Of a stretch of 64,000 nt of DNA, positions 4,498 to 27,882 are shown in pieces. The DNA is from Planctomycetia bacterium. GTDB lineage: Bacteria; Planctomycetota; Planctomycetia; Pirellulales; PALSA-1355. Both the position numbers and the translations under genes were made by a program. The stretch lies in contig JBGQHN010000001.1 in NCBI GenBank assembly GCA_041497975.1, forward strand, positions 3,888 to 67,887, written 5' to 3'. Positions within the stretch are counted from its first letter, which is position 1. Each line of letters opens with the position of its first letter. Under the pieces are notes generated by a model. It was not told the origin of the DNA, made no database searches, and saw only the letters and a program-made list of their open reading frames with translations.

Positions 4498-6057
4498 GTG
4501 GATTCTCATTTGCCGATTGAGGGCGAGCCGTGGTGGTTGCGTTTGCCTTGGGACCGGCTGGGCTTGGTGCTCGGCCCGGCGGCCATGTTGGCGTGGATGG
4601 CCTGGGGCCCAAGGCACGACGTGACGCCCGAGGCTCATCGACTGGTGGGCGTGCTGCTGCTGACGATCATCTGGTGGCTGACCGAGCCGATTCCAATTCC
4701 GGCCACCGGATTGCTTGGCGTGGCCTTGTCGGTCATGGTCGGCGCCATCCCGCGCGACGTCGGCGGCAAGCCCCCCGCGGTCATTGCGCTGGAACCGTTC
4801 GGCAACCCGACGCTCTTTTTCTTGTTGGGCGGAATGTTCATCGGCCGGGCGATGAGCCGTCATGGGCTCGATCGTCGGATCGCACTGTCGATTCTGACGG
4901 CGCCCGGGGCCGCCCGCACGCCGAACACGTTGCTGGCCGCCGTCGGGCTGTCGGTGATGTTGATTTCGATGTGGATCTCGAACACGGCGGCCACGGCGAT
5001 GATCTGTCCGGTAACGCTGGGCATCATTGGCGTGCTGGCAGCGGGAATGGAAGGGGGCGAAGACGGGTTCGCCCGTTCGCCCTATGCTTCCGCGCTGTTG
5101 TTGATGACGGCGTATGCGTCGAGCGTGGGCGGAATCGCCACGCCGATTGGCACGACCACGAACGTCGTGGCGATGGGCTATTTTCGACAAACGGACTATT
5201 TTGGTCGTCCGGTGGATTTCGCACGCTGGAGCGTGGTCGGCGTGCCGATGATGCTCGCGCTTGGACTTGCGCTGTTTGCATGGCTGCGCTTTCTTGCGCC
5301 CCGGGACAAACTGGATCTTTCAGCCGTGCGCGCCCATCTTGCCCGCGAGCGCGCTAAATTGGGAAGCTGGTCGGTGGGCGAGTGGAACACGCTGGCCGTG
5401 TTTGTGGCGGTCGTGGCTCTGTGGATCGCCCCGTCGGTGCTGGTTCTGGCGGGAATGGAGGAAGAGAGTCGCTGGTTCAACGCGCATTTCCCCGAGGAGA
5501 TTGTGGCGCTCATTGCGCCGGTCTTGCTGTTTCTGCTTCCGATCGATTGGCGGCAGCGAAGATTCTCATTGGAGATCGACGACTTCGCTCGGATCGACTG
5601 GGGCACGCTCATGTTGTTCGGCTCCGGTCTGTCCCTGGGCAGCCTCATGGTTCGCACCGGCCTGGTCCGCGTACTAGGACAAAGCGCGTTCGATTGGCTG
5701 GGAACGGACGACATCTGGTTGATTACGGCCATGGCAATCGTGGGCGGTATTCTGTTGAGCGAATTCACCAGCAACGCCGCCGCGGCCACCGCGTTGATTC
5801 CGGTGGTCATGGCCATCTGCCAGGAGGCGGGCGTCGACAAGGTCCCCCCGCTGATGGGCGTGACCTTCGCCGCCAGCTTTGGCTCCGCGCTGCCGGTTTC
5901 CACCCCGCCCAACGCGATTGTCTACGGCTCCGGACTGCTGCCGGCGCGGAGGATGATGTTGGCCGGAGTAGGATTCGACGTCGCGTGCGGCGTCGTCATC
6001 TGGATCGTGCTGCGCGCGGCTTACACGCTGGGATGGACGCCGATCACGTCGCTTTAG
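4498..6057 (+). CDS. DASS/SLC13 family anion (dicarboxylate/sulfate) transporter
   Basis: 519 aa from a GTG start, polytopic. Has LTIIWWLTEPIPIPATGLLG and a second repeat half with SNAAAATALIPV / SALPVSTPPNAIVY, typical of the paired hairpins in DASS/ArsB-NhaD superfamily permeases. Confidence 0.85.
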   Translation: MDSHLPIEGEPWWLRLPWDRLGLVLGPAAMLAWMAWGPRHDVTPEAHRLVGVLLLTIIWWLTEPIPIPATGLLGVALSVMVGAIPRDVGGKPPAVIALEPFGNPTLFFLLGGMFIGRAMSRHGLDRRIALSILTAPGAARTPNTLLAAVGLSVMLISMWISNTAATAMICPVTLGIIGVLAAGMEGGEDGFARSPYASALLLMTAYASSVGGIATPIGTTTNVVAMGYFRQTDYFGRPVDFARWSVVGVPMMLALGLALFAWLRFLAPRDKLDLSAVRAHLARERAKLGSWSVGEWNTLAVFVAVVALWIAPSVLVLAGMEEESRWFNAHFPEEIVALIAPVLLFLLPIDWRQRRFSLEIDDFARIDWGTLMLFGSGLSLGSLMVRTGLVRVLGQSAFDWLGTDDIWLITAMAIVGGILLSEFTSNAAAATALIPVVMAICQEAGVDKVPPLMGVTFAASFGSALPVSTPPNAIVYGSGLLPARRMMLAGVGFDVACGVVIWIVLRAAYTLGWTPITSL

Positions 6058-6121: not shown

Positions 6122-6385
6122 TTAGCGCTCCTTGCGCTTCAACTTGGCGTCGTTCTCTTTCATGAACGCCCGCAGCTCGCTGGCAAAGTTGAGCAAGCGG
6201 TCCCACTGCTCGACATAGAGCGTTACCGGCATGCGCTGCAATCCGTAGACGCTGATGGCGCCTTTTTCGCTTACCTTGCAATACAAGGCCCCGCGCTTCG
6301 GTTCGAGGCCGGCCAAAAGTTTCGAAGCTTCTTCGACCTTGAGCTGTCCGGCCGCGAGCTTGGCCAGGATTTCTTCTTTATCCAT
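6122..6385 (-). CDS. Small hypothetical protein with SHOCT-like N-terminal helix
   Basis: ATG 6385 is preceded by GGGAGGG 8 nt upstream. MDKEEILAKLAAGQLKVEEASKLLAGL resembles SHOCT-like (LiaX/YvlB N-terminal type) helices. The remaining ~60 aa (LYCKVSEKGAISVYGLQRMPVTLYVEQW...) matched nothing I recognise. It lies 28 nt downstream of the DAC-like gene. Confidence 0.5.
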   Translation of the reverse strand: MDKEEILAKLAAGQLKVEEASKLLAGLEPKRGALYCKVSEKGAISVYGLQRMPVTLYVEQWDRLLNFASELRAFMKENDAKLKRKER

Positions 6386-6413
6386 CGACCCACCCTCCCA
6401 TGGTTCGCTCATT

Positions 6414-7802
6414 TCAGGCCACGCGCGCGTTGACGCGCCGCAACAACGGACCTTGCTGCTGGCCGGGGACAAAACCATTAACCGGCCTGTACGCAAGCTG
6501 CACGTCAATGTTTTCCCACAAAACCAGGCTGTCGGCAATCCTCGTCATGGCCCGAATGTCGCCGTCCTGCGAGACCACGAAACCCAGAGCTCCCGGTTTG
6601 TCGTAACAGTACCGCATCATGGCCCGATGGCGCGTGCCGTATTGCGTCAATTCGGACTGCCGCAGCAACTTTGGGTCGGCGTGAGAATCGCGAGCCACGA
6701 AGATGTCGCTAAGCAGATTGTCGGTGCGCACTTCGACTCCAAATCCGTGCACCACCATGCGGCGATCCACAAGCACAAAACCGTCGACGCAAGACAGAGA
6801 GGCAATGAACCGCACCGCCCCCAGAACTTCGTTCTTGTGCTCGCGAGATTCCCAAGCCCAGGGCACGTCGCCGCGCCCGGCGTAGGGCAGCACGTCGCGG
6901 CCGTTGCTCGCCTCTCCCTCCGCACGAGTATGCGACGGATGCAACTGGCTTTCGACCATGCGGCGCAGCGCCTTGAGCAACCGATCGTAGCGAATCTTGT
7001 ACTTGACGTTCAGACCGTCGAGCGTTGTTTGCGGCGTGATCAACAATCCGCCGCCGTGCCGATAGCGTTGGATATTCATCAAGATGCGGCAGATCGCGTT
7101 TAGCCACCGCATCAAGAGCTCGGCCTCCAGATCGACCGGCGAAACTTGCTCGGGCGTTTTTGATCCCGTGTCAACCAGATAGCTCCGCAGGCAATTGGCC
7201 AACAGGTCGTGAACGGGGCCCGACCAGAGCACGTCGTGGTACTCTTCGACAAGCGTATTCTGCTCCAGGCTGCCAATGAGCAGGTCGTTTTGATATACCG
7301 AGATATTGCCTACGCCCGTGATCGTGGCTTGAAACAAACCGGGCCGCTCGGGCGTTGTGCCGGCGTCGAGCGCGATGAAATCGCTGTGGCGCGGCTCTTG
7401 GTCGACCATGCCCCAAATGAACAGCTTGTTCTTCTTGTCGCGAAACACCGCCAACGACGAGACGGCCGGATCGGCGGCCCGAGCCAGCTTGGACAGTGTG
7501 CGCACGTCGAATGGCAAGGGCCGCTCGAATGGCACGTGGCTCCAACAGTCGGCCGGGCGCTGCGCCGCGGCTTGGCCCTGGCGCTCGTCGGGATCTACAA
7601 AATTCACGGTGCAAAAGATCGGCCGTCCCTCGTCGGTCTTCAGGCTGGCGAAATACAACGTTTCGAGCAGTCGGGTGAGAACGGCTTCGGCCGGCGCGCC
7701 GCCGTGTTGGCTGCGAAGACGTGTCGCGACCAACTTCGCCAAGTGGCCCGGATATTGCGTGGTTCGATCGATCATCAGGCGGTCGCCGGCGACTGCTAGC
7801 AC
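6414..7802 (-). CDS. Hypothetical protein with C-terminal diadenylate-cyclase-like (DisA_N/DAC-like) domain
   Basis: 462 aa from GTG 7802 (alternative ATG at 7775). The C-terminal third has, in order, RHGGGLLITP, VDGFVLVDRRMVVHGFGVEV, YGTRHRAMMRYC and ALGFVVSQDGDIRAMTR. These parallel the DAC-domain blocks (GALIV, DGA..I, GTRHRAA, VVSEE.G.IS). The ~300-aa N-terminal region is unrecognised. Confidence 0.6.
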   Translation of the reverse strand: MLAVAGDRLMIDRTTQYPGHLAKLVATRLRSQHGGAPAEAVLTRLLETLYFASLKTDEGRPIFCTVNFVDPDERQGQAAAQRPADCWSHVPFERPLPFDVRTLSKLARAADPAVSSLAVFRDKKNKLFIWGMVDQEPRHSDFIALDAGTTPERPGLFQATITGVGNISVYQNDLLIGSLEQNTLVEEYHDVLWSGPVHDLLANCLRSYLVDTGSKTPEQVSPVDLEAELLMRWLNAICRILMNIQRYRHGGGLLITPQTTLDGLNVKYKIRYDRLLKALRRMVESQLHPSHTRAEGEASNGRDVLPYAGRGDVPWAWESREHKNEVLGAVRFIASLSCVDGFVLVDRRMVVHGFGVEVRTDNLLSDIFVARDSHADPKLLRQSELTQYGTRHRAMMRYCYDKPGALGFVVSQDGDIRAMTRIADSLVLWENIDVQLAYRPVNGFVPGQQQGPLLRRVNARVA

Positions 7803-8012
7803 ATGGGTGCGCGGTATGGGACGGCGGACTTATCGGAAAACAGCTCCGGCGCGTCAAGGCCGACTGGGCCCGGCCAGTTTTCTGGTTTGCCGCAAATGCC
7901 GCAATTCAAGGGTTTCAACAGGGCACGCGAGATTCGCATGCTAGTGGCCGCAGGGCCGTTCAAGTAAAATCCGCGCATGGAGTTTCTCTCCTTTAGCTCA
8001 AGGGCGAACAAC

Positions 8013-8282
8013 ATGAAAACGTTTCTGTGCATAGCGGGGGCCTGCGGCGCGGTGGCGTTATTGGGCGCAAATTTCATCACGCAGAGCGAAGCTATCGTGT
8101 CGGGGGCATTGACGGAGCTCAAGTTCGAGCCGCTGCCGGGCAAGCCTGGGCTGGTCGGGGCTCCGCCCAAGTTCAAGGCGACCAAAGAGACGATCGGCTA
8201 TCTCGACAAGCTCGTGAAAGAAGGCAAGATCATCGAAATCCAAGCCAACGGCGCGCTGAATATCATCGACGCGAAAAAGTAA
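8013..8282 (+). CDS. Small secreted hypothetical protein
   Basis: ATG 8013 gives [27 protein letters not shown] (signal peptide) and a ~60-aa mature part. No family recognised. Confidence 0.45.
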
Positions 8283-10340: not shown

Positions 10341-12641
10341 TCACGGCGACGACCGATCTTGCACCCCAAACACGTAGCGCTGGAACGTCCACTGAGCGCC
10401 GGCCGCGTCCACCAGCGGCTGTGCGTCGCGCTGGAGGGTCGCCGCCTGCCCGGCGCTGCGTCCGACAAGGACCGCCCGGCCGTTTTGTACCAGCCCGCTA
10501 AGTTCTACGAAACCTTGGTACTTATGGGCCAGACCCGTGTATTTTTCACCGCCGGCCAATGAGTGCGACGTCATGATCTCGACGATCTTGGCAATATCGA
10601 ACGATGCACGATCATAAGGCAAGGCGACGTTGCGGTCTCCCTGAACCGTCACGCGGCGCAAATAAGTCTCGACGCGTTGCGGATCCAGATCGGTTTCAAT
10701 GGCGATGGTTTGGTCGGGTCTCAATTGTCGCAGCGGATAGGCCCAGCGCTCGTAGAAGAGCACGCAATCCTCGAGCGCGTGTTGCGAGCGGTTGTTGAGC
10801 GTGCCGACGAGTCGTCCCGTGTCGCTCAGTTGGGCTTCGATGGCCGGCGTGCCCGACTGCCACCATCGTCCGACAAAGGCCTTACTCGACCAGTCGGCGA
10901 TCGGCACGCGCTGCATGCGCTCGAGGTTGTGGGAAAAGTCATAGGCCTCGGTAAACATCGGCGTGCTGCTGCCGGTCGCATCCATGCCCCCAAAACCGCT
11001 TCCCGGCAATCCCAGCCACGAGAAGACCAGGCCGGCCGCCACGGGAGACTTTTCGGCCGCCACGCGAGGACCGAGCGAGAGATCGTAAAGGTCGACCTTC
11101 GGACTGAAGACGGCCGCCCAACTTGTGCCTCGCACCAGTCTTGTCTCGGCGTCGAAATCGACGAGATCAATTCGATTGACCCGCACCTCCCGGCCCTTGA
11201 GCCCATAGGTCAGCGCATACGCCCCCGCGCTGAATGCCACCACGGTGACGGCGAACGTGAGCCAGGTTAATTCCATTCGGCCGAGCACGCGCTTGATGAT
11301 GAAATAGTCGAGTGGGCCGATGCAAACGATATAGGCCACAGCCAGCAGCGCCACCAGCCAGAATGGCACAAGCTCGACGCCCGCAAACTGGTCCAATGCG
11401 CCGCGCAACTGGCCGGAGAGATCGTCGAAGCCCAACGTCGTCACTTGCCCCAGTCCCTGTGACTCATCTTGCGAAACCCGCGGAGCCGACCTGCCCAACA
11501 GCTTGTCGAAAAGCTGCGCCCGCCCGCGCCAGCCTGCCAGCGGTGGCCCTTGGAGATCGAAGGCAACGAACACTACTTCGCCAAATCCGTGCGGCGCGCG
11601 AACGATCAGCGGCAGATCGCGGGCATGGCTGCCGGCATAGGCCTCTATTTTCCCCCGCACGTTTCGCAGCTTTGGCACCTGCAAGGCGAACGCGCCGCCC
11701 TGGGTAGTAAGCGGTTCGGACGTTTCGGCGTAGGTCTCAAATGCCGTGCTTTGCCGCAGTGGCACGAGCGCCTCGAACTCTCCGGGCGCGAGCCTCGCCA
11801 GCGGAGACTCCCCGGTCAATACCTTATCCGCCTGCGGGCCGACGCTCAGAATCAACTGGCCCCCCATCGTCACCCACCGGTCCAACGCGGCGAGTTGCGC
11901 AGCGTGGGAAGCGAGTTGCGCATTGGTTTGATCGGGCACGGTCGCGAGGATAACGGTATCGACCCCCTCGTAGCCCAACCAATTGGTTGGCAACTGGCCA
12001 AGATCGTTCACGTTGGCCACTTTGGCTCCGCGCTCGTCCAGGGACGTTTCGTCCTCAGCCGATAGCGGTGAGCCGAACGCCACAATCAAAGTCCAGTCCG
12101 ATGGAAGGATACCGCCCAGTTGTGGATTGTCCACCGTGCTAAACGTACGGCTGGCCAGCAAGCGGTCTTGGCTGCGGAAACCGACGGTCAGGTCGCTATG
12201 TAGCCGCCCGACCTTGGCGTACAAAAGCACCGCCGTCTTCTCGCCCGGACGAATCGTTATGTCTTGGCCGCTTGGGTCACACACCCGGGATGGCACGGCA
12301 TCGCCGTCGAGCGCGGTCAATTCAACGGAGCCGCTGACCTCCTCGTTGCCGCCTTGAAGCGTGATTTCAAAGGGGGTCCAATAACCCACTTTGAACCGAC
12401 CCGCGAAACCCGGCCGAATTCCCGTGACCGTTGGCGATTCGGGTCGGATTGCGAGCCGGGTTGGCTCGGGGGGTGTCGGTTCGTATTCGGTGGCGAGTAG
12501 CGCCGTCGGCCAACATGGGCTCGCCCAACAAAGGGTCATGCCCAGCACCGCCGGCCACAAACGAAGTCGCGCGACCATCCCACGTCGACGACGTCTGGCT
12601 GGGGCCTGGCTGTGCAGGTCGCGTCCGACTCGGCCGGTCAT
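10341..12641 (-). CDS. Large hypothetical membrane protein (766 aa)
   Basis: ATG 12641 forms an ATGA overlap with the MazG-like stop. It has a signal/TM segment (LRLWPAVLGMTLCWASPCWPTALLA) and a large extracytoplasmic part with a Rossmann-like segment VDTVILATVP...WVTMGGQLILSVG. Two central TM helices follow (FWLVALLAVAYIVCIG, WLTFAVTVVAFSAGAYALTYGL), then a further ~300-aa domain. No family recognised. Confidence 0.7.
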   Translation of the reverse strand: MTGRVGRDLHSQAPARRRRRGMVARLRLWPAVLGMTLCWASPCWPTALLATEYEPTPPEPTRLAIRPESPTVTGIRPGFAGRFKVGYWTPFEITLQGGNEEVSGSVELTALDGDAVPSRVCDPSGQDITIRPGEKTAVLLYAKVGRLHSDLTVGFRSQDRLLASRTFSTVDNPQLGGILPSDWTLIVAFGSPLSAEDETSLDERGAKVANVNDLGQLPTNWLGYEGVDTVILATVPDQTNAQLASHAAQLAALDRWVTMGGQLILSVGPQADKVLTGESPLARLAPGEFEALVPLRQSTAFETYAETSEPLTTQGGAFALQVPKLRNVRGKIEAYAGSHARDLPLIVRAPHGFGEVVFVAFDLQGPPLAGWRGRAQLFDKLLGRSAPRVSQDESQGLGQVTTLGFDDLSGQLRGALDQFAGVELVPFWLVALLAVAYIVCIGPLDYFIIKRVLGRMELTWLTFAVTVVAFSAGAYALTYGLKGREVRVNRIDLVDFDAETRLVRGTSWAAVFSPKVDLYDLSLGPRVAAEKSPVAAGLVFSWLGLPGSGFGGMDATGSSTPMFTEAYDFSHNLERMQRVPIADWSSKAFVGRWWQSGTPAIEAQLSDTGRLVGTLNNRSQHALEDCVLFYERWAYPLRQLRPDQTIAIETDLDPQRVETYLRRVTVQGDRNVALPYDRASFDIAKIVEIMTSHSLAGGEKYTGLAHKYQGFVELSGLVQNGRAVLVGRSAGQAATLQRDAQPLVDAAGAQWTFQRYVFGVQDRSSP

Positions 12642-12991
12642 GGCTTCTCCGCGTCGGCACAAGTACAAACGAACTGGCCGCAACCGGGGCAACCCGACCC
12701 ATACTTGCGCATCACGGCGTCGCTCAGATCGACTTCGGCCACATTGGCGATCGTCGCCAGCCAGGCCAGCACATCGGCAAACTCGGCCGCGCGTTCCTGA
12801 TGCGTGCCACTGCGCAGCGCGCTGGCCAATTCGCCGATTTCTTCCATCAGCCACATGAACGTGCCGTCGATGCCCCGCGCGACGTCTTTCTCGAAATACA
12901 TATCGCGGATCAGCCGTTGAAAATCGGCCAGATTTACCGCGGGACGCGCTTGCTCGGGCGACGGCCGGGAACCTTCTGTCTGGTGATTCAC
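12638..12991 (-). CDS. MazG-like nucleotide pyrophosphohydrolase domain protein
   Basis: 117 aa from a GTG start (GTGA overlap with the upstream stop). WLMEEIGELASAL and AAEFADVLAWLATIAN are the paired acidic helices of all-alpha MazG-type NTP pyrophosphatases. The C-terminal tail GCPGCGQFVCTC is Cys-rich. Confidence 0.8.
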   Translation of the reverse strand: MNHQTEGSRPSPEQARPAVNLADFQRLIRDMYFEKDVARGIDGTFMWLMEEIGELASALRSGTHQERAAEFADVLAWLATIANVAEVDLSDAVMRKYGSGCPGCGQFVCTCADAEKP

Positions 12992-15882
12992 TCGAGTGTC
13001 TCCAAGAGTTCTTGGGCTCCCTGGTGTTTCGGATCCAGCTTGAGAAGCTCTTCGAGTACCGGCTTGGCCCGGTCCGGCCGTTTGGCCTGGATGTGCATCT
13101 TGGCGAGAGCCAGTCGCAATGCCAGGTCGTCGGGGTCGAGCTCGACGGCCGCCGCGTATTCATCGGCCGCTGCCGCGGCGTTGCCCAGCGCCGCGAGCGC
13201 CTCGGCCCGCCACTGGTGCAATTGGGGATCCATCACCTGGATGCGCAGTCCCTCCAACGACCACTGTCCCGCGGCCGCCCAATCGCCTCGGGCCACGGCA
13301 AGTTGAGCCAGTTTCTTGCGGGCCGACAGATCATCGGCATCGGCCGCCGCCAAGCGGGCCAACACGTCGGCCAGCTCGCTGTTCTGTCCGGATTTCAAAT
13401 AGACGGCGGCCAGCGATTTGAGCCACTTCACACCGTTGGGATCGCGCTTGGCGCCGAGCTGATACAATTCGGCGGCCGCCGAGTAATCTTCGGCCTTCAA
13501 CTTCAGCCCGGCCAACAGCGCGAGCAGATTCTCCTGTGGGTTTTCGCGATCCAGGGCGCCTTCCAGACGCGCCAGGGCCGCCTTGTTCTCGGCCACCAGC
13601 AAATGCAACCGAGCCCGGACGTAATTGGCCAGAGCGTTGCGTGGCTCGACCTTCATCGCCGCGTCGGCCCAGCGCCGCGCGTCGGCATAATTCTTGCGCC
13701 CCAACTGGGCTTGGGCCATGCGGGCCATCAAGTCCGCGTCCTGGGGGTTCTTGGACAATCGTTTCTGTACTTCGCTCAAAGTCATTGCCGGCGCCTGGGC
13801 CGCGGTCGGCAAGTGAGCAATGACTTTCTTGACGGACTGGCGATAACCGTCTTCGAAATCGCGCGGAGTGACGTTGAACGAACGCGCCAGGGCTTCCGGC
13901 GTGCCCAAATTGTCCGCGTACGCGGCCAGCATCTTGGCAATCGCATCGTCGCCGAACCGCTCGAGCATGTACTGGGCGTACAGTTCGGCCTGGCAGTACG
14001 CCAGGGTCCATTGGTCGCTCGATTGCGGGCGAATGAAGCCGAGATTGATCGACTCGAGGTCGAACAGCTTGTTGGCCGCGAAGTGTTCGAGAAGCACGTC
14101 GTTCCACGCCTGGGGCCGCGGGTATCCCTCGTTCAAGACGGCCACCGCTTCGGTGAACCAATGCGGTATGTTGAAATCGGTCTGCTGCAAATTGATGACG
14201 TGCACGAATTCGTGCTTGAGCACGCGCGCCCAGTTAAATCGCTGTTCGCCTTCGCTGGGCGACTGCAGCGCCACGATCTTGCCGGCACAAGCGCCGATCG
14301 GATGTATGTGTGGCAGCCCGACCATCCGCGCGCTGAACCAGCCGTGGCCGTCGGTGTTCTTGGCCTGGCTGAACACTTCGAAGAGCGATTTGTCGGGCGG
14401 CGCGTAGCCCATCTGCCGCACCAGGTGCGGATAGACCTCTTCCAGCCAATCGCCCATGTAGCGCGCCAGCAGCCGGTCTTTGGCCGGATCGAACTTGATG
14501 CGGAAGTGCTCGGTCTCCTGCGTTTCGTACGTGGCCAGCACTTCCAACACCTTGAGGGTGTTGTTCACGCGGACGTTGAAGGGATCGATCTTGAACGCCT
14601 CGTCGAGCACCGCTTTGGCCTGCTCTTCTTCGCCCAATCGCATGAGCATCATGCCCAACTGGCCGCCGGGGCCGATCAGTTGCGGCATCCGCGTCATCGC
14701 CTCGCGGTAGTAGTGTGCCGCCGCCGGCCAACGGCGCAGACGGTCGAGCGCGTCGGCGAGGGTCTCGAAAAAGACGCCCGGGTGAGGATTGCGCCCGGTA
14801 ACTTCGGCCACCAACTTGCCGAAGCGCTTGTCGTCCATCGTACGGGCAAGCCCATCGACCGCGGCATATCCGGCCGCCATTCGCCCCAAAGTCTCCTCCG
14901 AGTGCGGGTGCAATTTCAATGCTTCCGTCAAGACGCCGATGCATTGGCGCGGCTCGAAATTCGCCAGGTGAATGTCGGCTTTCAAGTGCCATGCATCGAG
15001 CAATTGCGGATTGATCTCCATTGCGCGATCGCAGGAAGCTTGGGCGGCGGCCAACTCGAACTCTTCCAGCGACAGTTGGCCCAAGGCCACGTGCACTTCG
15101 GCCGCGTTATGGTTCAGCTCGAGCGCGGCCTTCAACTCCTTGCCCGCGTCGGCCATGTTGTACTTTTCGGCAAACAGCCGTCCAGCTTCGTAGTGTGCTT
15201 GCCAACAAGTCGGATCGGTCGACACGAGATCCGGATAGAATTCGTTCACCAGAAAGCCGAACTGATCGCTCAACCGATTCCAGCGGGCGAATTGGGCCGC
15301 CCCCAAGCCCACCCAGCGCAAGTTGCGTGGATCTTTGACTCGGCCGGCATTGAACAACTTGACCAGCCGCTCGTAGCCGGCGTTGGCCTGTGCCAGGCAA
15401 CCCGCGGCGCAATCGAGTTCGGCACGCACCCACAAGGCCAGGGTCTGGTCATTGTCCAGCTTCAGCGCGGCGGCTGCTGACTCGTCGGCCGCCTCGTAGT
15501 CCCCGCGGCCCAACGCCAGGCGGGCCAACTCAGCCTGCAGCGTCGCGGCCTCTGGGTGCTTTTTGGCCGCTTCAGCAAGGGTTTGCACGGCCTGTTCGCG
15601 CTGGCCGACCGCTTCCTGGCAGGCGGCCACGCCCCTGGCCGCCTCCACTGCGTTCTGGGCCCTCAGGGCACGATACGCGTCTTGGGCTTCGGCGTACTTT
15701 CCCTCCTGCGATAGCCGGTGCGCCGCGGCCAGCGGGCCTTCAGCCGCGGGCTCGTCGGCGGCCAGACCGACACGGCAAAAGGCCAGCGCCAGCCATGCCC
15801 CTCCCCAGGCCGCGATCCGGAAGGAAGACTTCAACGGGAGGCTCACGATAGCTCCATGCAGGGTCGCAACCGACAGTCGCAT
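12988..15882 (-). CDS. Exported TPR-repeat protein with embedded HExxH (peptidase MA-like) domain
   Basis: 964 aa from an ATG start with a signal-like N-terminus. TPR-like A/L/Y-rich repeats lie on both sides of a central block RVLKHEFVHVINLQQTDFNIPHWFTEAVAV (HExxH plus a downstream Glu, gluzincin-like). Confidence 0.8.
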   Translation of the reverse strand: MRLSVATLHGAIVSLPLKSSFRIAAWGGAWLALAFCRVGLAADEPAAEGPLAAAHRLSQEGKYAEAQDAYRALRAQNAVEAARGVAACQEAVGQREQAVQTLAEAAKKHPEAATLQAELARLALGRGDYEAADESAAAALKLDNDQTLALWVRAELDCAAGCLAQANAGYERLVKLFNAGRVKDPRNLRWVGLGAAQFARWNRLSDQFGFLVNEFYPDLVSTDPTCWQAHYEAGRLFAEKYNMADAGKELKAALELNHNAAEVHVALGQLSLEEFELAAAQASCDRAMEINPQLLDAWHLKADIHLANFEPRQCIGVLTEALKLHPHSEETLGRMAAGYAAVDGLARTMDDKRFGKLVAEVTGRNPHPGVFFETLADALDRLRRWPAAAHYYREAMTRMPQLIGPGGQLGMMLMRLGEEEQAKAVLDEAFKIDPFNVRVNNTLKVLEVLATYETQETEHFRIKFDPAKDRLLARYMGDWLEEVYPHLVRQMGYAPPDKSLFEVFSQAKNTDGHGWFSARMVGLPHIHPIGACAGKIVALQSPSEGEQRFNWARVLKHEFVHVINLQQTDFNIPHWFTEAVAVLNEGYPRPQAWNDVLLEHFAANKLFDLESINLGFIRPQSSDQWTLAYCQAELYAQYMLERFGDDAIAKMLAAYADNLGTPEALARSFNVTPRDFEDGYRQSVKKVIAHLPTAAQAPAMTLSEVQKRLSKNPQDADLMARMAQAQLGRKNYADARRWADAAMKVEPRNALANYVRARLHLLVAENKAALARLEGALDRENPQENLLALLAGLKLKAEDYSAAAELYQLGAKRDPNGVKWLKSLAAVYLKSGQNSELADVLARLAAADADDLSARKKLAQLAVARGDWAAAGQWSLEGLRIQVMDPQLHQWRAEALAALGNAAAAADEYAAAVELDPDDLALRLALAKMHIQAKRPDRAKPVLEELLKLDPKHQGAQELLETLE

Positions 15883-23426: not shown

Positions 23427-24239
23427 TCATTTCCTGTTCTGTTCCTCCGCCAAGCGCTTATAGTAACGTTCGATCATCAGTTCGTATTGTGGCAAAAATC
23501 GCTCCGGCGAGTTTTGCAACATTTGTTCGCGAGCCCGCTGGGGCAGATGTCCCCAAGCGTCCTTCAATAGCCCTTTGACCAATTCCGGATCGGGCCGCGC
23601 GTCTTCGGCCTTGCCCAGACGATCCGTGCTGTCTTGGGCCGGCTTGTTCGAATCCTTGCCCGACTTGCCGGCCGACGGTTTGGATTGCTGAACCTGTTGT
23701 CGCTTGCTGGTTTGCTGTTTCTTGTTCTTTGTCGACGCGGCCTGCTGCGCGGCGCGCTGCTGCTGGGCTTGTTCGATCAACTTAGCCAGGTCTTCGACAA
23801 TTCGCTGCTGCAGGTGCTCGGCGTGCGCGCGCTGGGCGCGATCGGTAATCAAACTCTCTGCGGACCGCATCTCTTGGCTGATATACGAAAGAGGGTCCTC
23901 TTCGGGGCTTGGCATGCCGATATCTTCGCCGTCAATAACGGATTGATCGAGTGGCTGCTCGCTCGACTTGTCACCAGCGGGGCGCTTTGACCGCCGGCTG
24001 TCCTTGGCATCGCCGGCGCCCTCAAGCAGTTCGTTGTCCAGATCCTTCAGTAGCGTCTCGTCGAGCGTGGGTTCCGCGGCGCTTTTTTTTGCCGCGGGTG
24101 GGGCGTCTTGGGGTTTAGAATCCGGTTCGCCGGCGGCATCGGCTGGTGCCAGCGCCAGCGTAAACGCCAACAGCCCGGCGCACGCGACGATGAGCGGAAC
24201 AGCCGGCGACGATCGCGAAAACCAGCACGCGTTAGCCAT
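23427..24239 (-). CDS. Secreted charged hypothetical protein
   Basis: 270 aa with a signal peptide (PLIVACAGLLAFTLALAPADA), an acidic then Q/K-rich low-complexity middle, and a conserved-looking C-terminus WGHLPQRAREQMLQNSPERFLPQYELMIERYYKRLAEE. It has an 8-nt overlap with the upstream gene. Confidence 0.6.
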   Translation of the reverse strand: MANACWFSRSSPAVPLIVACAGLLAFTLALAPADAAGEPDSKPQDAPPAAKKSAAEPTLDETLLKDLDNELLEGAGDAKDSRRSKRPAGDKSSEQPLDQSVIDGEDIGMPSPEEDPLSYISQEMRSAESLITDRAQRAHAEHLQQRIVEDLAKLIEQAQQQRAAQQAASTKNKKQQTSKRQQVQQSKPSAGKSGKDSNKPAQDSTDRLGKAEDARPDPELVKGLLKDAWGHLPQRAREQMLQNSPERFLPQYELMIERYYKRLAEEQNRK

Positions 24240-27200
24240 CAGAATCCTTTTCTACCGCCGCGCGTGGTTCGCCGGGGGGCGGTGCTATGTCGCCTGGCGG
24301 ACCCTCTTGGCGCACGTCAGGAAGCTTTTCGGGATCATCCTCTGGATTGTCCGCGGGGGGCTCGGCCAATTTGAGCGTCAAGTCCGCCAGTTTGCCCTGC
24401 TCGGCGGCAATCTCAGTTAATTCTTGATCGGCCGTTGCGGCGGCGTCGTCCTTGGGCGTAGTCAGGGTTCGATACCGACCGTTGAGATCTTCTTGCAAGA
24501 TCTTGAGCAACTTCAATTGGGTTAATACGTAGTTGCCGTCGGATCGAGCACCTTTTCCGCCTGCCGATCCGCCGCCTTCCGCGCCGCCGGACTTCGCTTT
24601 GGCCTTGTCTTCGAACGCCGTCAGCAATTGGGCCAGCCGCACCCGAGCCGCCTCCTGGCTGCCCTGTGTAGCGGTGCCGGTCTCGCGGTGTGTGAGCAAT
24701 TCGGCGGCCCGCGTCATTTGCTTGGCGGCCCCGCCGAGCGCCAAGTTGATGACTTCGGTGAGCGAGAGCTTTTCAGCCAATAGGGAAGTGTCGCCCTCCA
24801 GTGATTTCTGCTGGCGAGCCAGATCGTTGACCGTGCTGAGCTGAGCCCGCGTCAGGCGGCCCGCGCTGGCGCGCAAGTTCTCGATCCGCTCGGTTTCCTG
24901 GATGAGTTTTTTCTGGCGCTCGTGCAAGCTCTTGAGCGAGTCTTCCAGACGGGCCATCTGCTCGCGGGCCAAATCTTCTTCCGCTTGACGCCGTCGCTGC
25001 GCCAGTTGCTCTTGAGCTTCCTGCAGATCTTTTTCCGCCTTTTCGGCTTGTTGTTCGGCCGCCGCCGCGTCGCCCTGTTGCCCGGCGTTGCCCGCCTGCT
25101 GCATCTTGCCTGCCGCGCCCGAAGTGCTGCGACCGGCTTGCTCCGCCTGCAAGCGTTCCAGCCGCCGGGCCAGTCGGGCCGCCTCGTCCTCGAGTTTCTT
25201 TTGTTCGCGAGCCAGACGTTCGAGCTGCTGTTTTCGCTCGGCGTCCGGCTTGTCAGCCGCGGCGCGCATTTGCTTGCGTAGACCGGCCTGGCGCTCTCGG
25301 ATGTTGGAAAGCTGTTGTTCCGATTCGCGCAGCTGCTTGACCAGTCTGGTGAGTTCCTGCTCGCGCCGATTGGACAAGATCGCCATCAGGTCTTCGAGAT
25401 CCTTGGCGATCTTTGTCTGTTGCTCGACGGCCTGGCCGAGTTGATTTCGCTCCAGCTGTTGGCTCGACTGCCGCATTTGCCCGCTGATGGCTTGTTGCTG
25501 CGACTGGTGCAGTCCGTCGGAAATCGTCGCGGCCGAAAGAGGGTCGGTTTGTTGGAGCGACTGGGTCGTTTCGGCCATCTGCTGCTGGACTTTTTCCAGC
25601 CTGCGACTCAACTCGACCTGTTGGGCCGAAAGTTTTTTCAAGTCCGCCTGCTGCTGCGAGTCAAGATCTTTCAATTCCCGTCCCAGGGTCTTTTGACCGA
25701 TTTCCTTGGTGGCGCTGGCAATCGCTTCCTGATCGCGCTGCAGGTGCGCGACATCTCGGGCAAAGCGGCGGTAGTTGTCCCACTGGCCCAGTTCACTCAA
25801 CATGTTTTCCAGCGACGAAATCACCTGGTCCTGATTCGCTCCGGCGCTGGTGAGCGATTTGTTCACCAGTGGGTCGACCTGGGTTTGCGACGGAGTCTGG
25901 CCGGCGTCTTGAGGCAATTTGGACTGGGCCGTCTTGATCAAACTCGTCAGGTCACGCTCGATGGCATTCAAGTGTTGTTGGCCGAGCCGGTCGAGCTCCT
26001 CCATGATCGCGGTCATGTGCCGTTCGATTTCGGGGCTATCGACGCGGTTGTTGCCGAGATCGGTCAGAAAATCGCCGATCTGCGCCGGAATGCCCTCGGT
26101 CCGGCTCGTTAAGGTTCGCGTCACCTGGCGTTGATTCAGCTCGGCGCTCTGCGCATGGTCGACATCTTGTTTATTCAGTCGCCCGACCTGGTCCAATTGG
26201 ATCTCTAGTGACTTCGTCTGCGCGCGTGCATCCTGTTGCAACTTCAGCACGCGCTGTAACTCACCGACGATCAATTGCTGCCGTTGAGCAAGGCGTTCTT
26301 CGAGTTCCGCCGGCGTGATGATTGAAATCTGGCGGACGGTGCTCTTGCCTAGTTGCGGCACATAGTCACTGGCGGTGGCCCAAAACGTGAGTTGTGAACC
26401 GGTCTTGAGACCCAAATCCGCGAGCGACCAGCGATGTTCCAACACTCGCGTTTCGCCCAGGTGTCCGCCGACCAGCAGCCCCGGGGAAACCTGGGGGGGC
26501 ACTTTGTCGGGTCCCTGATGAATTGGTACGGCAAAGTCCTCCACGTCCGAGCGGTCCGAGCGGCTGAAGTGCAAGCCGATTTCGCGAACGGCCAGATCGT
26601 CTTTGACCGCGATCTTAAGCGGCACTTCGCCTTGCGGAGTCACGAAGATATTGCCCGTGGGTTGCTCGACGGTAACGGTCGGCACCTGATCCACGATTGC
26701 GCGGATTTCCCAGCGATCGTCGGCGCCCCCGATCAGACCTGGGCCATCTTCGAGTGCGATCCAGTAGGCGCCGGATTTGTCGATGACAAATGGGCTCTCG
26801 GCATCGGTACCCAGCGAGAACCCGTAAGCGTCCGCCGACAATTGCAAGCTCAGCTGGGGGCCATTTTCCTGGTGGATCTTGGCGCCGCGAAGCTTTTTTG
26901 TCGAAATGCCCGATAGCTCGACGCGAGTGCCGCGCAACGCGTAGATGTTCTTTTCGCACGACTCGACGGGCAAGCCGGTATAGTCCGGCGGATGCAGCGT
27001 CAGTTGCAACGAATCGAGCTTCGGAGGCTCGACCACCTCCAAGTGAATCCACTCCATCGAAGAATCGTCGCCCCCCTCGGCCCGATACCAAAATGGCCGA
27101 GTCACGTTTTCCTTTCGGGCGACCATTGTTCCATTCAGCAAGGTCATGGACTCGGATACTTCTTCGACGCTCGACGCGCCGGCATCATAGCGATAGTGGA

Positions 27201-27882
27201 TGCGAACTTCGTCGGGCACGCGGTGTTGGGCGTCCCGAACGAGTTCGACCTCGAAGGACTGGCCGGCGGCCAATCGCGTCGGAGCTTGCCGAAAAGCCAG
27301 ACGGTAGAACTTGGGCCAGCTTTCGCCGCCCAGGGGCCGGGCAAGCCGCCCCAGTGCAATGCGGGCAGCCGACGGCGACACGGCGAGAACTCCAAGCGCG
27401 ACGGCTCCCACGACGGCCGCCACCAGCAGCGCGCGACGCGTCGGTCGGCGCTCGAAGACGCTCGAAAAGTCCAAGCCTTCAACGTCGGACGCCGTCCTGA
27501 GTACTACCGCGCGGCGCAGGACCGCTGAGCCCGCCAGGGTGTCGGTCTCCGACTGCTTGAGAAACTGAATCGTGCTGGCCAGGCGGTCTGTCAAACTGGG
27601 GAATCGCCGCTCGATGCGTTGCGCAAGCTGGAGATCGTCCAACCGGCGGGCGAAACCGACGATCCAAAATCGAACGCAGGCCCACGCAAAAACAAGAACC
27701 ACCGCCAGGCTGCACATCAGCCGGATGCCAGGGTCTTGAAAACGAATGAAATAGTCCGCCAAGCCGAGCAGCAACACGGTCAGCGTCACCAGGCTGACGG
27801 TCCAGCTCAGGGCATACAAGGCCATCAGCCGGCGAGCCTGGAAACGCACCTGGCCAATTTTCTGTTCCAGCGGATGTGCCAT
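24232..27882 (-). CDS. Membrane-anchored giant coiled-coil protein (1216 aa; DUF4175-like topology, tentative)
   Basis: N-terminal TM helices (LMALYALSWTVSLVTLTVLLLGLADYF; LMCSLAVVLVFAWACVRFWIVGF), a beta-rich middle region, then about 600 aa of Q/E/R/L/A-rich heptad-like sequence and a Pro/acidic tail. Confidence 0.75.
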   Translation of the reverse strand: MAHPLEQKIGQVRFQARRLMALYALSWTVSLVTLTVLLLGLADYFIRFQDPGIRLMCSLAVVLVFAWACVRFWIVGFARRLDDLQLAQRIERRFPSLTDRLASTIQFLKQSETDTLAGSAVLRRAVVLRTASDVEGLDFSSVFERRPTRRALLVAAVVGAVALGVLAVSPSAARIALGRLARPLGGESWPKFYRLAFRQAPTRLAAGQSFEVELVRDAQHRVPDEVRIHYRYDAGASSVEEVSESMTLLNGTMVARKENVTRPFWYRAEGGDDSSMEWIHLEVVEPPKLDSLQLTLHPPDYTGLPVESCEKNIYALRGTRVELSGISTKKLRGAKIHQENGPQLSLQLSADAYGFSLGTDAESPFVIDKSGAYWIALEDGPGLIGGADDRWEIRAIVDQVPTVTVEQPTGNIFVTPQGEVPLKIAVKDDLAVREIGLHFSRSDRSDVEDFAVPIHQGPDKVPPQVSPGLLVGGHLGETRVLEHRWSLADLGLKTGSQLTFWATASDYVPQLGKSTVRQISIITPAELEERLAQRQQLIVGELQRVLKLQQDARAQTKSLEIQLDQVGRLNKQDVDHAQSAELNQRQVTRTLTSRTEGIPAQIGDFLTDLGNNRVDSPEIERHMTAIMEELDRLGQQHLNAIERDLTSLIKTAQSKLPQDAGQTPSQTQVDPLVNKSLTSAGANQDQVISSLENMLSELGQWDNYRRFARDVAHLQRDQEAIASATKEIGQKTLGRELKDLDSQQQADLKKLSAQQVELSRRLEKVQQQMAETTQSLQQTDPLSAATISDGLHQSQQQAISGQMRQSSQQLERNQLGQAVEQQTKIAKDLEDLMAILSNRREQELTRLVKQLRESEQQLSNIRERQAGLRKQMRAAADKPDAERKQQLERLAREQKKLEDEAARLARRLERLQAEQAGRSTSGAAGKMQQAGNAGQQGDAAAAEQQAEKAEKDLQEAQEQLAQRRRQAEEDLAREQMARLEDSLKSLHERQKKLIQETERIENLRASAGRLTRAQLSTVNDLARQQKSLEGDTSLLAEKLSLTEVINLALGGAAKQMTRAAELLTHRETGTATQGSQEAARVRLAQLLTAFEDKAKAKSGGAEGGGSAGGKGARSDGNYVLTQLKLLKILQEDLNGRYRTLTTPKDDAAATADQELTEIAAEQGKLADLTLKLAEPPADNPEDDPEKLPDVRQEGPPGDIAPPPGEPRAAVEKDSDG

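What the first reader, a model, noticed from the sequence alone, without database searches (positions are those of the whole stretch)
6122..7802. Orphan divergent diadenylate-cyclase-like (DAC) domain protein with an unrecognised ~300-aa N-terminal region, followed by a SHOCT-like small protein
Seen: the C-terminal third of the 462-aa protein contains, in the canonical order, HGGGLLI, DGFVLVD....VHGFGVEV, GTRHRAMM and FVVSQDGDIRAM. These mirror the conserved blocks of DisA_N/CdaA cyclase domains (GALIV, DGA, GTRHRAA, VVSEE.G.IS). The DGA motif is DGF here.

The N-terminal two thirds match nothing I recognise and have no TM helix, so the protein is unlike CdaA. I see no HhH domain, so it is also unlike DisA. 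An 88-aa gene with its own GGGAGGG ribosome-binding site lies 28 nt downstream. It starts with a SHOCT-like helix.

Inference: this could be a new architectural class of c-di-AMP (or related nucleotide) synthase with a novel sensor domain. Alternatively it could be a catalytically dead DAC-fold binding protein, with the small protein as its partner.
Basis: partly seen in the sequence, partly recalled or inferred. Interest (0 to 1): 0.55.

Follow-up and report, generated by a model that had tools for sequence, protein, structure and literature searches.

The report
Divergent DACNV-type diadenylate cyclase homologue
This Pirellulales (Planctomycetota) gene belongs to a large protein family that is already catalogued but has never been tested, joining an uncharacterised 'DACNV' module to a very divergent c-di-AMP-synthase-like domain; the small gene after it is not a dedicated partner.

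Summary
ORF 6414-7802(-) carries the quoted motifs, and an 87-aa gene with a GGGAGGG ribosome-binding site starts 28 nt downstream.

The C-terminal half is a genuine but very divergent DAC domain:
- Pfam DAC scores only 15.5 bits (cut-off 27).
- The 16 best Foldseek PDB hits to an AlphaFold model are all CdaA, CdaM, DacM or DisA.
- hhalign against PDB DAC sequences gives E 1.3e-5.
- D-G, G-T-R-H-R and S-x-D are kept in 47-54 of 54 relatives, down to 28% identity.

The N-terminal region is not unknown. It matches Pfam PF21751, 'Probable sensor domain DACNV' (70 bits), and NCBI already names relatives accordingly. The family has about 2,800 representatives at 50% identity. I found no experimental work on it. 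A confident model of the N-terminal fold matches nothing in PDB or BFVD.

The small SHOCT-like gene follows only 11 of 47 homologous loci, all in the closest clade. Its roughly 80%-identical relatives sit in unrelated contexts, so it is not a partner.

The neighbours are housekeeping genes, with no sign of defence or mobile elements.

Best reading: a cytoplasmic one-component sensor-cyclase that makes c-di-AMP or a related dinucleotide. It is a new member of a known, untested kind, of modest interest.

The parts
6414..7775 (-). CDS of the DACNV-DAC-like protein (453 aa from the ATG at 7775). The mechanical ORF extends to a GTG at 7802, giving 462 aa.
   Evidence: The N-termini of homologues align from MIDRTTQYP. 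Full-length collinear homologues: 440 clusters and 2,845 50%-identity representatives.
7161..7775 (-). N-terminal module, residues 1-205. It consists of two helices, a mixed beta-sheet, and a long exit helix at 186-202. Invariant residues are E49 and D125; near-invariant are S44, K96, G122, Q126, G146 and G156.
   Evidence: AlphaFold model of residues 1-205 has pLDDT 89.6 and pTM 0.83. It has no significant PDB match (best E 0.46) and no BFVD match (best E 0.15). hhalign against DAC gives probability 0.2%. Conservation.
7404..7697 (-). Stretch matched by Pfam PF21751 (DACNV), residues 27-124. This is only about half of the structural N-terminal module.
   Evidence: E 1.8e-19, 70 bits, cut-off 27.
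6501..7148 (-). Divergent DAC (DisA_N-like) domain, residues ~210-425.
   Evidence: The Foldseek top 16 PDB hits are all diadenylate cyclases: prob 0.60-1.00 (1.00 for the isolated-domain chains), TM(target) 0.45-0.62 for those, E 1e-3 to 3e-2, and the next hit at E 1.9. hhalign against 5 PDB DAC sequences gives prob 80%, E 1.3e-5. Pfam DAC is sub-threshold here (15.5 bits) and in 29 of 54 relatives.
7047..7058 (-). H240-G241-G242-G243, read as the equivalent of the canonical 'GALI' strand motif.
   Evidence: Conserved in 51, 54 and 54 of 54 sequences, with A/G at position 243. hhalign did not align this block, so the equivalence is inferred from motif order and from the fold match.
6816..6983 (-). 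Family-specific helical and disordered insertion (residues ~265-320) between the HGG and DG motifs.
   Evidence: HGG-to-DG spacing is 76-97 residues in all 54 members, against about 40 in DisA and CdaA. Model residues 282-303 have low confidence.
6777..6785 (-). D331-G332-F333, the equivalent of the DGA motif.
   Evidence: hhalign pairs VDG with MDGA of DisA. D is present in 53 of 54 and G in 54 of 54. The third position is L34, A8, V7, F4.
6624..6638 (-). G380-T381-R382-H383-R384, identical to the canonical GTRHR (RHR) motif.
   Evidence: Searches align it to GTRHR of CdaA and DisA. Conservation out of 54: G 54, T 47, R 54, H 52, R 47.
6561..6572 (-). S402-Q403-D404-G405, the equivalent of CdaA 'SEETG' and DisA 'SRRR'. 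D404 would take the place of the CdaA metal-binding Glu; that role is from my memory of the CdaA literature.
   Evidence: Alignments. Conservation out of 54: S 54, D 53, G 52, R408 49.
6393..6399 (-). GGGAGGG Shine-Dalgarno-like site, 7 nt before the small gene's ATG.
6122..6385 (-). 87-aa basic protein (pI 9.3) with a SHOCT-like N-terminal helix pair. It is probably co-transcribed here but is not a family-wide partner.
   Evidence: SHOCT-like, sub-threshold; 11 of 47 loci; dispersed family; clean presence/absence polymorphism.

Best explanation
The gene encodes a soluble, stand-alone signalling enzyme of the catalogued but uncharacterised DACNV family. An N-terminal module of ~205 residues is joined by long helices to a highly divergent diadenylate-cyclase (DAC) domain. 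This module is the Pfam 'probable sensor domain DACNV', and its fold has no solved counterpart.

Inferred mechanism: two DAC domains meet face to face, as in DisA and CdaA, and condense two NTPs into a cyclic dinucleotide. The substrate is most likely ATP, giving 3'3'-c-di-AMP. The reaction would use the conserved D331-G332, T381-R382-H383-R384 and S402/D404 residues. The DACNV module, with invariant E49 and D125, would bind a small ligand or partner and set whether productive DAC-DAC contacts form.

Shown here: family membership, the DAC fold, motif conservation, and the absence of a conserved partner or defence context.

Inferred: catalytic activity, the product, and the sensor role.

The downstream 87-aa SHOCT-like gene is a lineage-specific passenger, not part of the mechanism.
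For: - DACNV Pfam match of 70 bits against a cut-off of 27, present in 54 of 54 diverse relatives.
- The AlphaFold C-terminal half has pLDDT 80-90, and the Foldseek top 16 PDB hits are exclusively CdaM, DacM, CdaA or DisA.
- hhalign of the C-terminal half against PDB DAC sequences gives prob 80%, E 1.3e-5. The N-terminal module as a negative control gives prob 0.2%.
- Recurrent sub-threshold Pfam DAC hits occur in 29 of 54 members. The best is 24.9 bits in a Hymenobacter homologue.
- D331, G332, G380, R382, H383, S402 and D404 are kept in 52-54 of 54 sequences, down to 28% identity. This argues for a working nucleotide site.
- The two modules always occur together at full length (~430-460 aa) in the top 150 of 2,845 representatives.
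- No operon partner is conserved across 47 loci. Neighbours are housekeeping genes: a DASS transporter, DUF488, NUDIX, UPF0047, an ABC ATPase.
- There are no PADLOC, PHROGs or phage hits.
- GC content matches the surroundings.
Against: - The Pfam DAC score is below the gathering cut-off, and HMMER against PDB is not significant (E 1.2-1.8).
- The Ala of DGA is replaced by L, F or V in most members.
- A ~50-residue insertion splits the domain.
- No biochemical data exist for any member. The term DACNV occurs in none of the ~8 million papers searched.
- The 'sensor' role is only a database label.
- I could not check whether the genome also has a canonical DAC. Planctomycetes are reported to carry DacZ/CdaZ-like DACs (PMC6741144), which would leave this protein's role open.
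Confidence: 0.6

Rival explanations
1. The DAC-like domain is catalytically inactive and serves as a nucleotide-binding (receptor or scaffold) domain. This would resemble the DACNH domain of CdaG proteins, which is described as DAC-related but lacking catalytic residues.
For: The domain is extremely divergent (Pfam 15.5 bits). DGA reads DG[L/F/V] in most members. A large insertion is present. A precedent for degenerate DAC-like domains is described in 10.64898/2026.08.10.743972.
Against: Unlike DACNH as described, this family keeps D-G, G-T-R-H-R and S-x-D almost invariantly over 54 sequences at 28-88% identity. That includes both acidic residues expected to bind metal.
Confidence: 0.15
2. It is the signal-generating enzyme of an anti-phage system, analogous to DS-2C/CdaG in CBASS variants or to PanS in PanDA/Panoptoo.
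For: DAC domains were recently shown to act in defence (10.64898/2026.08.10.743927 and ...743972). Some relatives are on Hymenobacter plasmids, one of them next to a patatin gene. One relative is fused or adjacent to a P4-type primase. One locus is followed by a ParA-like gene (L044).
Against: In the window and in 16 syntenic loci the neighbours are housekeeping genes. There is no PADLOC hit for either protein. No effector gene is conserved across 47 loci. The Hymenobacter patatin is a Patatin+Omp85 outer-membrane type, not CapV-like. Orthologues are 73-88% identical across many MAGs, and GC content equals the background. This is unlike the low-GC, patchy defence DACs described.
Confidence: 0.07
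3. The DACNV-DAC protein and the SHOCT-like 87-aa protein form a dedicated two-component module.
For: The gap is 28 nt with a strong RBS and no terminator-like site between the genes. The pair recurs in 11 close relatives.
Against: The small gene is absent from 8 of 19 close-clade loci and from all 28 more distant loci. Loci lacking it show a clean deletion/insertion boundary. The small protein family (2,167 clusters at ~80% identity) also lies after a RecQ-like helicase, a GYF_2 protein, or an aldehyde dehydrogenase in other genomes.
Confidence: 0.05

Closest known systems
Pfam PF21751 'Probable sensor domain DACNV' proteins (NCBI product name 'putative sensor domain DACNV-containing protein')
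   Same: This protein is a member. The match is 70 bits against a cut-off of 27. It aligns full length with ~2,800 representatives and shares all of the invariant residues.
   Different: Nothing distinguishes it from the family. It differs only in the lineage-specific small gene downstream. The Pfam model covers only residues 27-124 of a ~205-residue structural module.
CdaA / DisA / CdaM (canonical diadenylate cyclases, Pfam PF02457; PDB 6hvl, 3c1y, 8ofj)
   Same: It has the same fold, an identical GTRHR motif, and the D-G of DGA and the S-x-acid strand in the same order.
   Different: Sequence similarity is below Pfam and HMMER significance. There is a ~50-residue insertion between the first strand motif and DG. 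The Ala of DGA is usually Leu. It lacks the three TM helices of CdaA and the helical spine and HhH of DisA.
CdaG / DS-2C (DACNG + DACNH + DAC; CBASS-associated, shown to make c-di-AMP in 10.64898/2026.08.10.743927)
   Same: It is a soluble DAC with an uncharacterised N-terminal 'DACN*' module labelled a probable sensor. The naming scheme is the same.
   Different: There is no DACNG or DACNH match. The protein is shorter, ~450 against ~550-575 aa. It has no CBASS or defence neighbourhood.
PanS minimal DAC of PanDA/Panoptoo
   Same: It is a divergent DAC domain outside the classical CdaA/DisA classes. PanS shows that DAC domains can make products other than c-di-AMP, namely cUA.
   Different: PanS is ~150 aa with no appended domain and is paired with a 2TM-beta effector. 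Here there is a large N-terminal module and no effector.
DacZ/CdaZ (PK_C-like N-terminal domain + DAC), reported in Planctomycetales (PMC6741144)
   Same: It is a soluble two-module DAC found in the same phylum.
   Different: The N-terminal fold here matches no PDB structure, including pyruvate-kinase C-terminal domains. The DAC domain is far more divergent.
SHOCT / SHOCT-like_DUF2089-C (PF22746), for the 87-aa protein
   Same: The N-terminal helix pair (residues 3-31) gives recurrent weak matches.
   Different: All scores are below the cut-off (13-22 bits against 27). The conserved C-terminal ~55 residues match nothing.

Membership tests
DACNV-containing proteins (Pfam PF21751) | Match to PF21751 at or above the gathering score | tested here: met
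   70.1 bits against 27, E 1.8e-19.
DACNV-containing proteins (Pfam PF21751) | Collinear full-length similarity to other members, with the DACNV module followed by the DAC-like module | tested here: met
   Nearly all of the top 150 representatives align over profile positions ~5-435 of 460; the remainder are short or partial sequences. All 54 of 54 carry DACNV and 29 of 54 give weak DAC hits.
Diadenylate cyclase domain (DAC/DisA_N, PF02457) | Pfam PF02457 match at or above the gathering score | tested here: not met
   15.5 bits against 27, E 0.013, covering only residues 373-409. The best relative scores 24.9 bits.
Diadenylate cyclase domain (DAC/DisA_N, PF02457) | DAC fold | tested here: met
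   The Foldseek top 16 PDB hits are all DACs, TM(target) 0.45-0.62 against isolated DAC-domain chains, then a gap to E 1.9. hhalign gives prob 80%, E 1.3e-5.
Diadenylate cyclase domain (DAC/DisA_N, PF02457) | DGA motif | tested here: inconclusive
   D331 (53 of 54) and G332 (54 of 54) are kept. The Ala is F here, and L34, A8, V7, F4 across the family.
Diadenylate cyclase domain (DAC/DisA_N, PF02457) | RHR motif (GTRHR) | tested here: met
   G380-T-R-H-R384 is identical to CdaA and DisA. R382 is kept in 54 of 54, H383 in 52 and R384 in 47.
Diadenylate cyclase domain (DAC/DisA_N, PF02457) | Synthesis of c-di-AMP from ATP | not testable with these tools
   This needs an enzyme assay. No published assay of any DACNV protein was found.
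CdaA class | Three N-terminal transmembrane helices before the DAC domain | tested here: not met
   No TM segment. The maximum hydropathy of 1.79 lies in the buried DAC core, and the model is globular.
DisA class | C-terminal helical linker plus HhH DNA-binding domain | tested here: not met
   The DAC-like domain is C-terminal, only ~28 residues follow it, and there is no HhH Pfam hit.
CdaG / DS-2C | DACNG and DACNH domains; CBASS-type neighbourhood | tested here: not met
   Pfam lists only DACNV, DAC (weak) and YjbF (weak) at E<=10. There is no PADLOC hit. Neighbours are housekeeping genes.
PanDA / Panoptoo (PanS + PanE) | Minimal ~150-aa DAC next to a 2TM-beta effector | tested here: not met
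   The protein is 453 aa with a large N-terminal module. The adjacent genes are an 87-aa soluble protein and a DASS transporter.
SHOCT-like domain (PF22746), small protein | Pfam match at or above the gathering score | tested here: not met
   20.3 bits against 27. Nine of 10 relatives give 13-22 bits over residues 3-31. This is a resemblance, not demonstrated membership.
Conserved two-gene module (DAC-like + small protein) | Co-occurrence of the two genes across the family | tested here: not met
   11 of 47 loci, all in the closest clade (69-84% identity). The small family is dispersed elsewhere.

The most novel reading that the evidence does not exclude
The DACNV family could be a second, housekeeping cyclic-dinucleotide pathway, abundant in Planctomycetota and also present in Acidobacteriota, Actinomycetota and Bacteroidota. 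Its remodelled DAC site (DG-Leu/Phe plus a 50-residue insertion) could make a signal other than 3'3'-c-di-AMP, for example a mixed or non-canonical dinucleotide. Its N-terminal module would be a structurally new ligand-binding domain, or even a catalytic one given the invariant Glu/Asp pair.
Probability: 0.2. Interest if true: 0.7.

Novelty: new member of a known kind. Interest (0 to 1): 0.3.

Why it matters
c-di-AMP biology rests on a handful of DAC classes: CdaA, DisA, CdaS, CdaM and CdaZ. In August 2026 two preprints showed that divergent DAC domains also work in phage defence and can make cUA.

The DACNV family is large, with about 2,800 representatives at 50% identity, and it is well conserved. 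No paper in the searched library mentions it.

Showing its product and the signal read by a fold with no structural relative would add a new input-output pair to bacterial second-messenger signalling. It would also give Planctomycetes, where such signalling is almost unexplored, a testable entry point.

For this window alone the result is a tidy annotation rather than a discovery.

Tried and rejected
- Direct sequence searches of PDB with the protein and with 14- and 54-sequence profiles gave only non-significant DAC hits, E 1.2-1.8. Fold and profile-profile evidence was needed instead.
- NCBIfam, PADLOC, PHROGs and the phage collection gave nothing.
- Rfam found nothing in the window, so there is no c-di-AMP riboswitch nearby.
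- I asked whether the N-terminal module is a degenerate DAC duplicate, as reported for DACNH. This is rejected: hhalign prob 0.2% against DAC and against the C-terminal half, and no DAC among the Foldseek hits.
- I considered a patatin effector partnership in Hymenobacter monticola. This is rejected as CBASS-like, because the neighbour is a Patatin+Omp85 protein.
- I looked for any conserved neighbour by all-against-all BLAST of flanking ORFs in 47 loci. Only near-clade synteny turned up.
- Fusions in longer relatives (TPR, P4 primase region, unannotated extensions) gave no functional clue.
- The promoter/terminator scan was uninformative.
- The two papers most likely to define DACNV could not be read, so the origin of the name and any family letter are unverified. 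These are Galperin 2023, J Bacteriol 205:e00023-23, and Burroughs & Aravind 2020, J Bacteriol 202:e00365-20.
- I could not test whether the same genome has a canonical DAC.
Full report
**1. Observation**

HGGGLLI, VDGFVLVD...VHGFGVEV, GTRHRAMM and FVVSQDGDIRAM appear in that order in the C-terminal part. Homologues start at MIDRTTQYP, so the real start is most likely the ATG at 7775, giving 453 aa. I number residues from there.

The stop is at 6416-6414. A GGGAGGG lies at 6399-6393, and the ATG of the small gene is at 6385, a 28-nt gap as reported. The small protein is 87 aa, not 88, and the NCBI record makes the same gene call.

There is no TM helix. The only hydrophobic peak is a buried segment of the DAC core. 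Pfam finds no HhH domain.

**2. What the large protein is**

Pfam places residues 27-124 in PF21751, 'Probable sensor domain DACNV', at 70 bits against a cut-off of 27. So the N-terminal region is not unrecognised.

The family is already in the databases. The protein search returned 440 clusters, nearly all about 455 aa, nearly all carrying PF21751. They come from Pirellulales/Planctomycetota MAGs, and several are named by NCBI 'putative sensor domain DACNV-containing protein'.

An exhaustive profile search found 2,845 representatives at 50% identity with E<=1e-3, and 536 with E<=1e-30. Nearly all of the best 150 align over almost the whole profile; a few are short or partial sequences. The two halves therefore always travel together.

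Beyond Planctomycetota, loci came from an Acidobacteriota MAG, a Thermoleophilia MAG and a 'delta proteobacterium' MAG. Two more came from Hymenobacter plasmids.

**3. Is the C-terminal half a DAC domain?**

Sequence alone does not show it:
- Pfam DAC scores 15.5 bits (cut-off 27) over residues 373-409.
- HMMER profiles against PDB give E 1.2-1.8, although the hits are diadenylate cyclases.

Three independent lines do show it.

First, an AlphaFold2 model built without templates has pLDDT 80-90 across residues ~185-425. Its 16 best Foldseek matches in PDB are all diadenylate cyclases (CdaM 8ofj, DacM 7dg0, CdaA 8c4j/6hvl, DisA 3c1y/9y9y). Probability is 0.60-1.00, and 1.00 for the isolated DAC-domain chains. 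TM-score on the target is 0.45-0.62 for those chains, and lower for full-length DisA chains. The next hit is at E 1.9.

Second, I ran hhalign with the family's C-terminal alignment against five DAC sequences taken from PDB search output. It gives probability 80% and E 1.3e-5, while the N-terminal half as a control gives probability 0.2%.

Third, 29 of 54 diverse members give weak Pfam DAC hits. A Hymenobacter monticola homologue reaches 24.9 bits.

**4. The motifs**

The hhalign alignment pairs three blocks:
- V-D331-G332-F with M-D-G-A of DisA.
- G380-T-R-H-R384 with G-T-R-H-R.
- V-S402-Q-D404-G with V-S-R-R-R of DisA, which corresponds to V-S-E-E-T-G of CdaA.

Conservation across 54 members, down to 28% identity, is as follows:

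| Position | Kept in (of 54) |
|---|---|
| D331 | 53 |
| G332 | 54 |
| G380 | 54 |
| T381 | 47 |
| R382 | 54 |
| H383 | 52 |
| R384 | 47 |
| S402 | 54 |
| D404 | 53 |
| G405 | 52 |
| H240 | 51 |
| G241, G242 | 54 each |

Two features are family-specific. The Ala of DGA is Leu, Val or Phe in most members (Ala in 8 of 54). The HGG-to-DG spacing is 76-97 residues against about 40 in DisA and CdaA, which amounts to a conserved ~50-residue helical and disordered insertion.

From my knowledge of the CdaA and DisA literature, the Asp of DGA and the Glu of SEE bind the metal, and T-R-H-R binds the phosphates. I did not verify this here. Keeping their equivalents nearly invariant argues for a working nucleotide site rather than a dead one.

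**5. The N-terminal module**

A model of residues 1-205 built with the 54-sequence alignment is confident: pLDDT 89.6, pTM 0.83. It shows two helices, a mixed sheet and a long exit helix. It has no significant match in PDB (best E 0.46, probability 0.11) or in BFVD (best E 0.15), and it is not DAC-like.

E49 and D125 are invariant. S44, K96, G122, Q126, G146 and G156 are nearly so. The Pfam model covers only about half of this module. 'Sensor' is a database label, and nothing here tests it.

**6. The small gene**

Its N-terminus gives sub-threshold SHOCT-like matches (20.3 bits against 27), as do 9 of 10 relatives.

It is not a conserved partner. A tblastn hit lies just downstream of the DAC-like gene in only 11 of 47 homologous loci, all within the closest clade (69-84% identity). 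It is missing from 8 other close loci and from all 28 distant ones. In loci without it, the convergent transporter gene follows almost directly, which makes this a clean presence/absence polymorphism.

The small protein family is itself huge: 2,167 clusters at about 80% identity. It occurs after a RecQ-like helicase, after a GYF_2 protein next to PTS_EIIA, and between an aldehyde dehydrogenase and AhpC in other Pirellulales contigs.

**7. Context**

The neighbours in the window are a convergent DASS/CitMHS transporter, DUF488, NUDIX, oxidoreductases, UPF0047, DUF1499 and an ABC ATPase.

An all-against-all comparison of flanking ORFs in 47 loci shows synteny only among close relatives and no neighbour conserved across the family. 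Contexts of distant members vary.

Neither protein hits PADLOC or PHROGs. There is no phage homologue, no Rfam element in the window, and GC content equals the background. A second DAC motif is absent from the 64 kb.

This is the pattern of a stand-alone housekeeping signalling gene, not of a defence island. The few mobile-looking contexts concern distant relatives:
- A P4-primase fusion or adjacency, P0103.
- A ParA-like neighbour in L044.
- Hymenobacter plasmids. The patatin neighbour there is a Patatin+Omp85 protein, not a CBASS effector.

**8. Literature**

'DACNV' occurs in no paper of the library.

[quoted passage not shown] They show that divergent DAC domains make c-di-AMP or cUA in phage defence.

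They cite Galperin 2023, which sorts DACs into 22 families. That paper and Burroughs & Aravind 2020 are not held. I therefore cannot say which family letter, if any, covers DACNV proteins.

Planctomycetales are reported to have DacZ/CdaZ-like DACs (PMC6741144). This protein need not be the organism's only cyclase, and I could not test that.

**9. Verdict**

The protein is a bona fide member of the catalogued, experimentally untouched DACNV family.

The most likely mechanism is a one-component sensor-cyclase that makes c-di-AMP or a related dinucleotide (confidence about 0.6). The rivals are:
- A non-catalytic nucleotide-binding protein: 0.15.
- A defence cyclase: 0.07.
- A dedicated pair with the SHOCT-like protein: 0.05.

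Novelty: a new member of a known kind. Interest is modest (0.3). The family as a whole is a reasonable target because its product, its signal and the fold of its N-terminal module are all unknown.

Noticed in passing
window 6122-6385 (-); loci L052-L061: The 87-aa SHOCT-like protein belongs to a very large Pirellulales family (2,167 clusters at 90% identity, members ~80% identical to each other). The family sits in quite different gene neighbourhoods in different genomes. At this locus the gene is a clean presence/absence polymorphism between two convergent genes. Its function is unknown, and the conserved C-terminal ~55 residues match no family.
   Followed up: partly
window 4498-6057 (+): A DASS/CitMHS (Na_sulph_symp) transporter lies convergent to the DAC-like gene here and in 16 near-clade loci. 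A CitMHS transporter is also convergent to a 38%-identical homologue (P0150). This is a weak hint of a link between the cyclase and an anion transporter.
   Followed up: partly
window 24001-26000, inside ORF 24232-27882 (-): AT skew is strongly negative (-0.315) over 2 kb within a 1,216-aa ORF. AT skew is positive (+0.10 to +0.18) across 38-48 kb. Such compositional asymmetry is unusual for coding sequence.
   Followed up: no
window 10341-13163 (-): A 940-aa ORF with no Pfam match lies downstream of, and overlaps the end of, a 964-aa TPR + Peptidase_MA_2 protein (12988-15882) and is followed by an ABC ATPase gene.
   Followed up: no
P0103 (770 aa, Planctomycetota MAG): A D5_N/DUF5906 P4-type primase fragment is joined in one predicted protein to a full DACNV-DAC-like protein. 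This is either a gene-call fusion or a copy sitting inside a mobile element.
   Followed up: partly
L062 (Hymenobacter monticola plasmid NZ_CP094535.1, 7986-9194) and L063 (H. volaticus plasmid NZ_CP095065.1, 7908-9150): Cultured Hymenobacter strains carry plasmid-borne homologues. The H. monticola copy (402 aa) has the best Pfam DAC score seen (24.9 bits) and follows a Patatin+Omp85 gene by 69 nt. The H. volaticus copy is split into two ORFs and is probably a pseudogene.
   Followed up: partly
window 7977-8282 (+): A small ORF (89 aa from MKTFL) with a signal-peptide-like N-terminus and no Pfam match is transcribed divergently from the DAC-like gene. The NCBI record also calls it.
   Followed up: no
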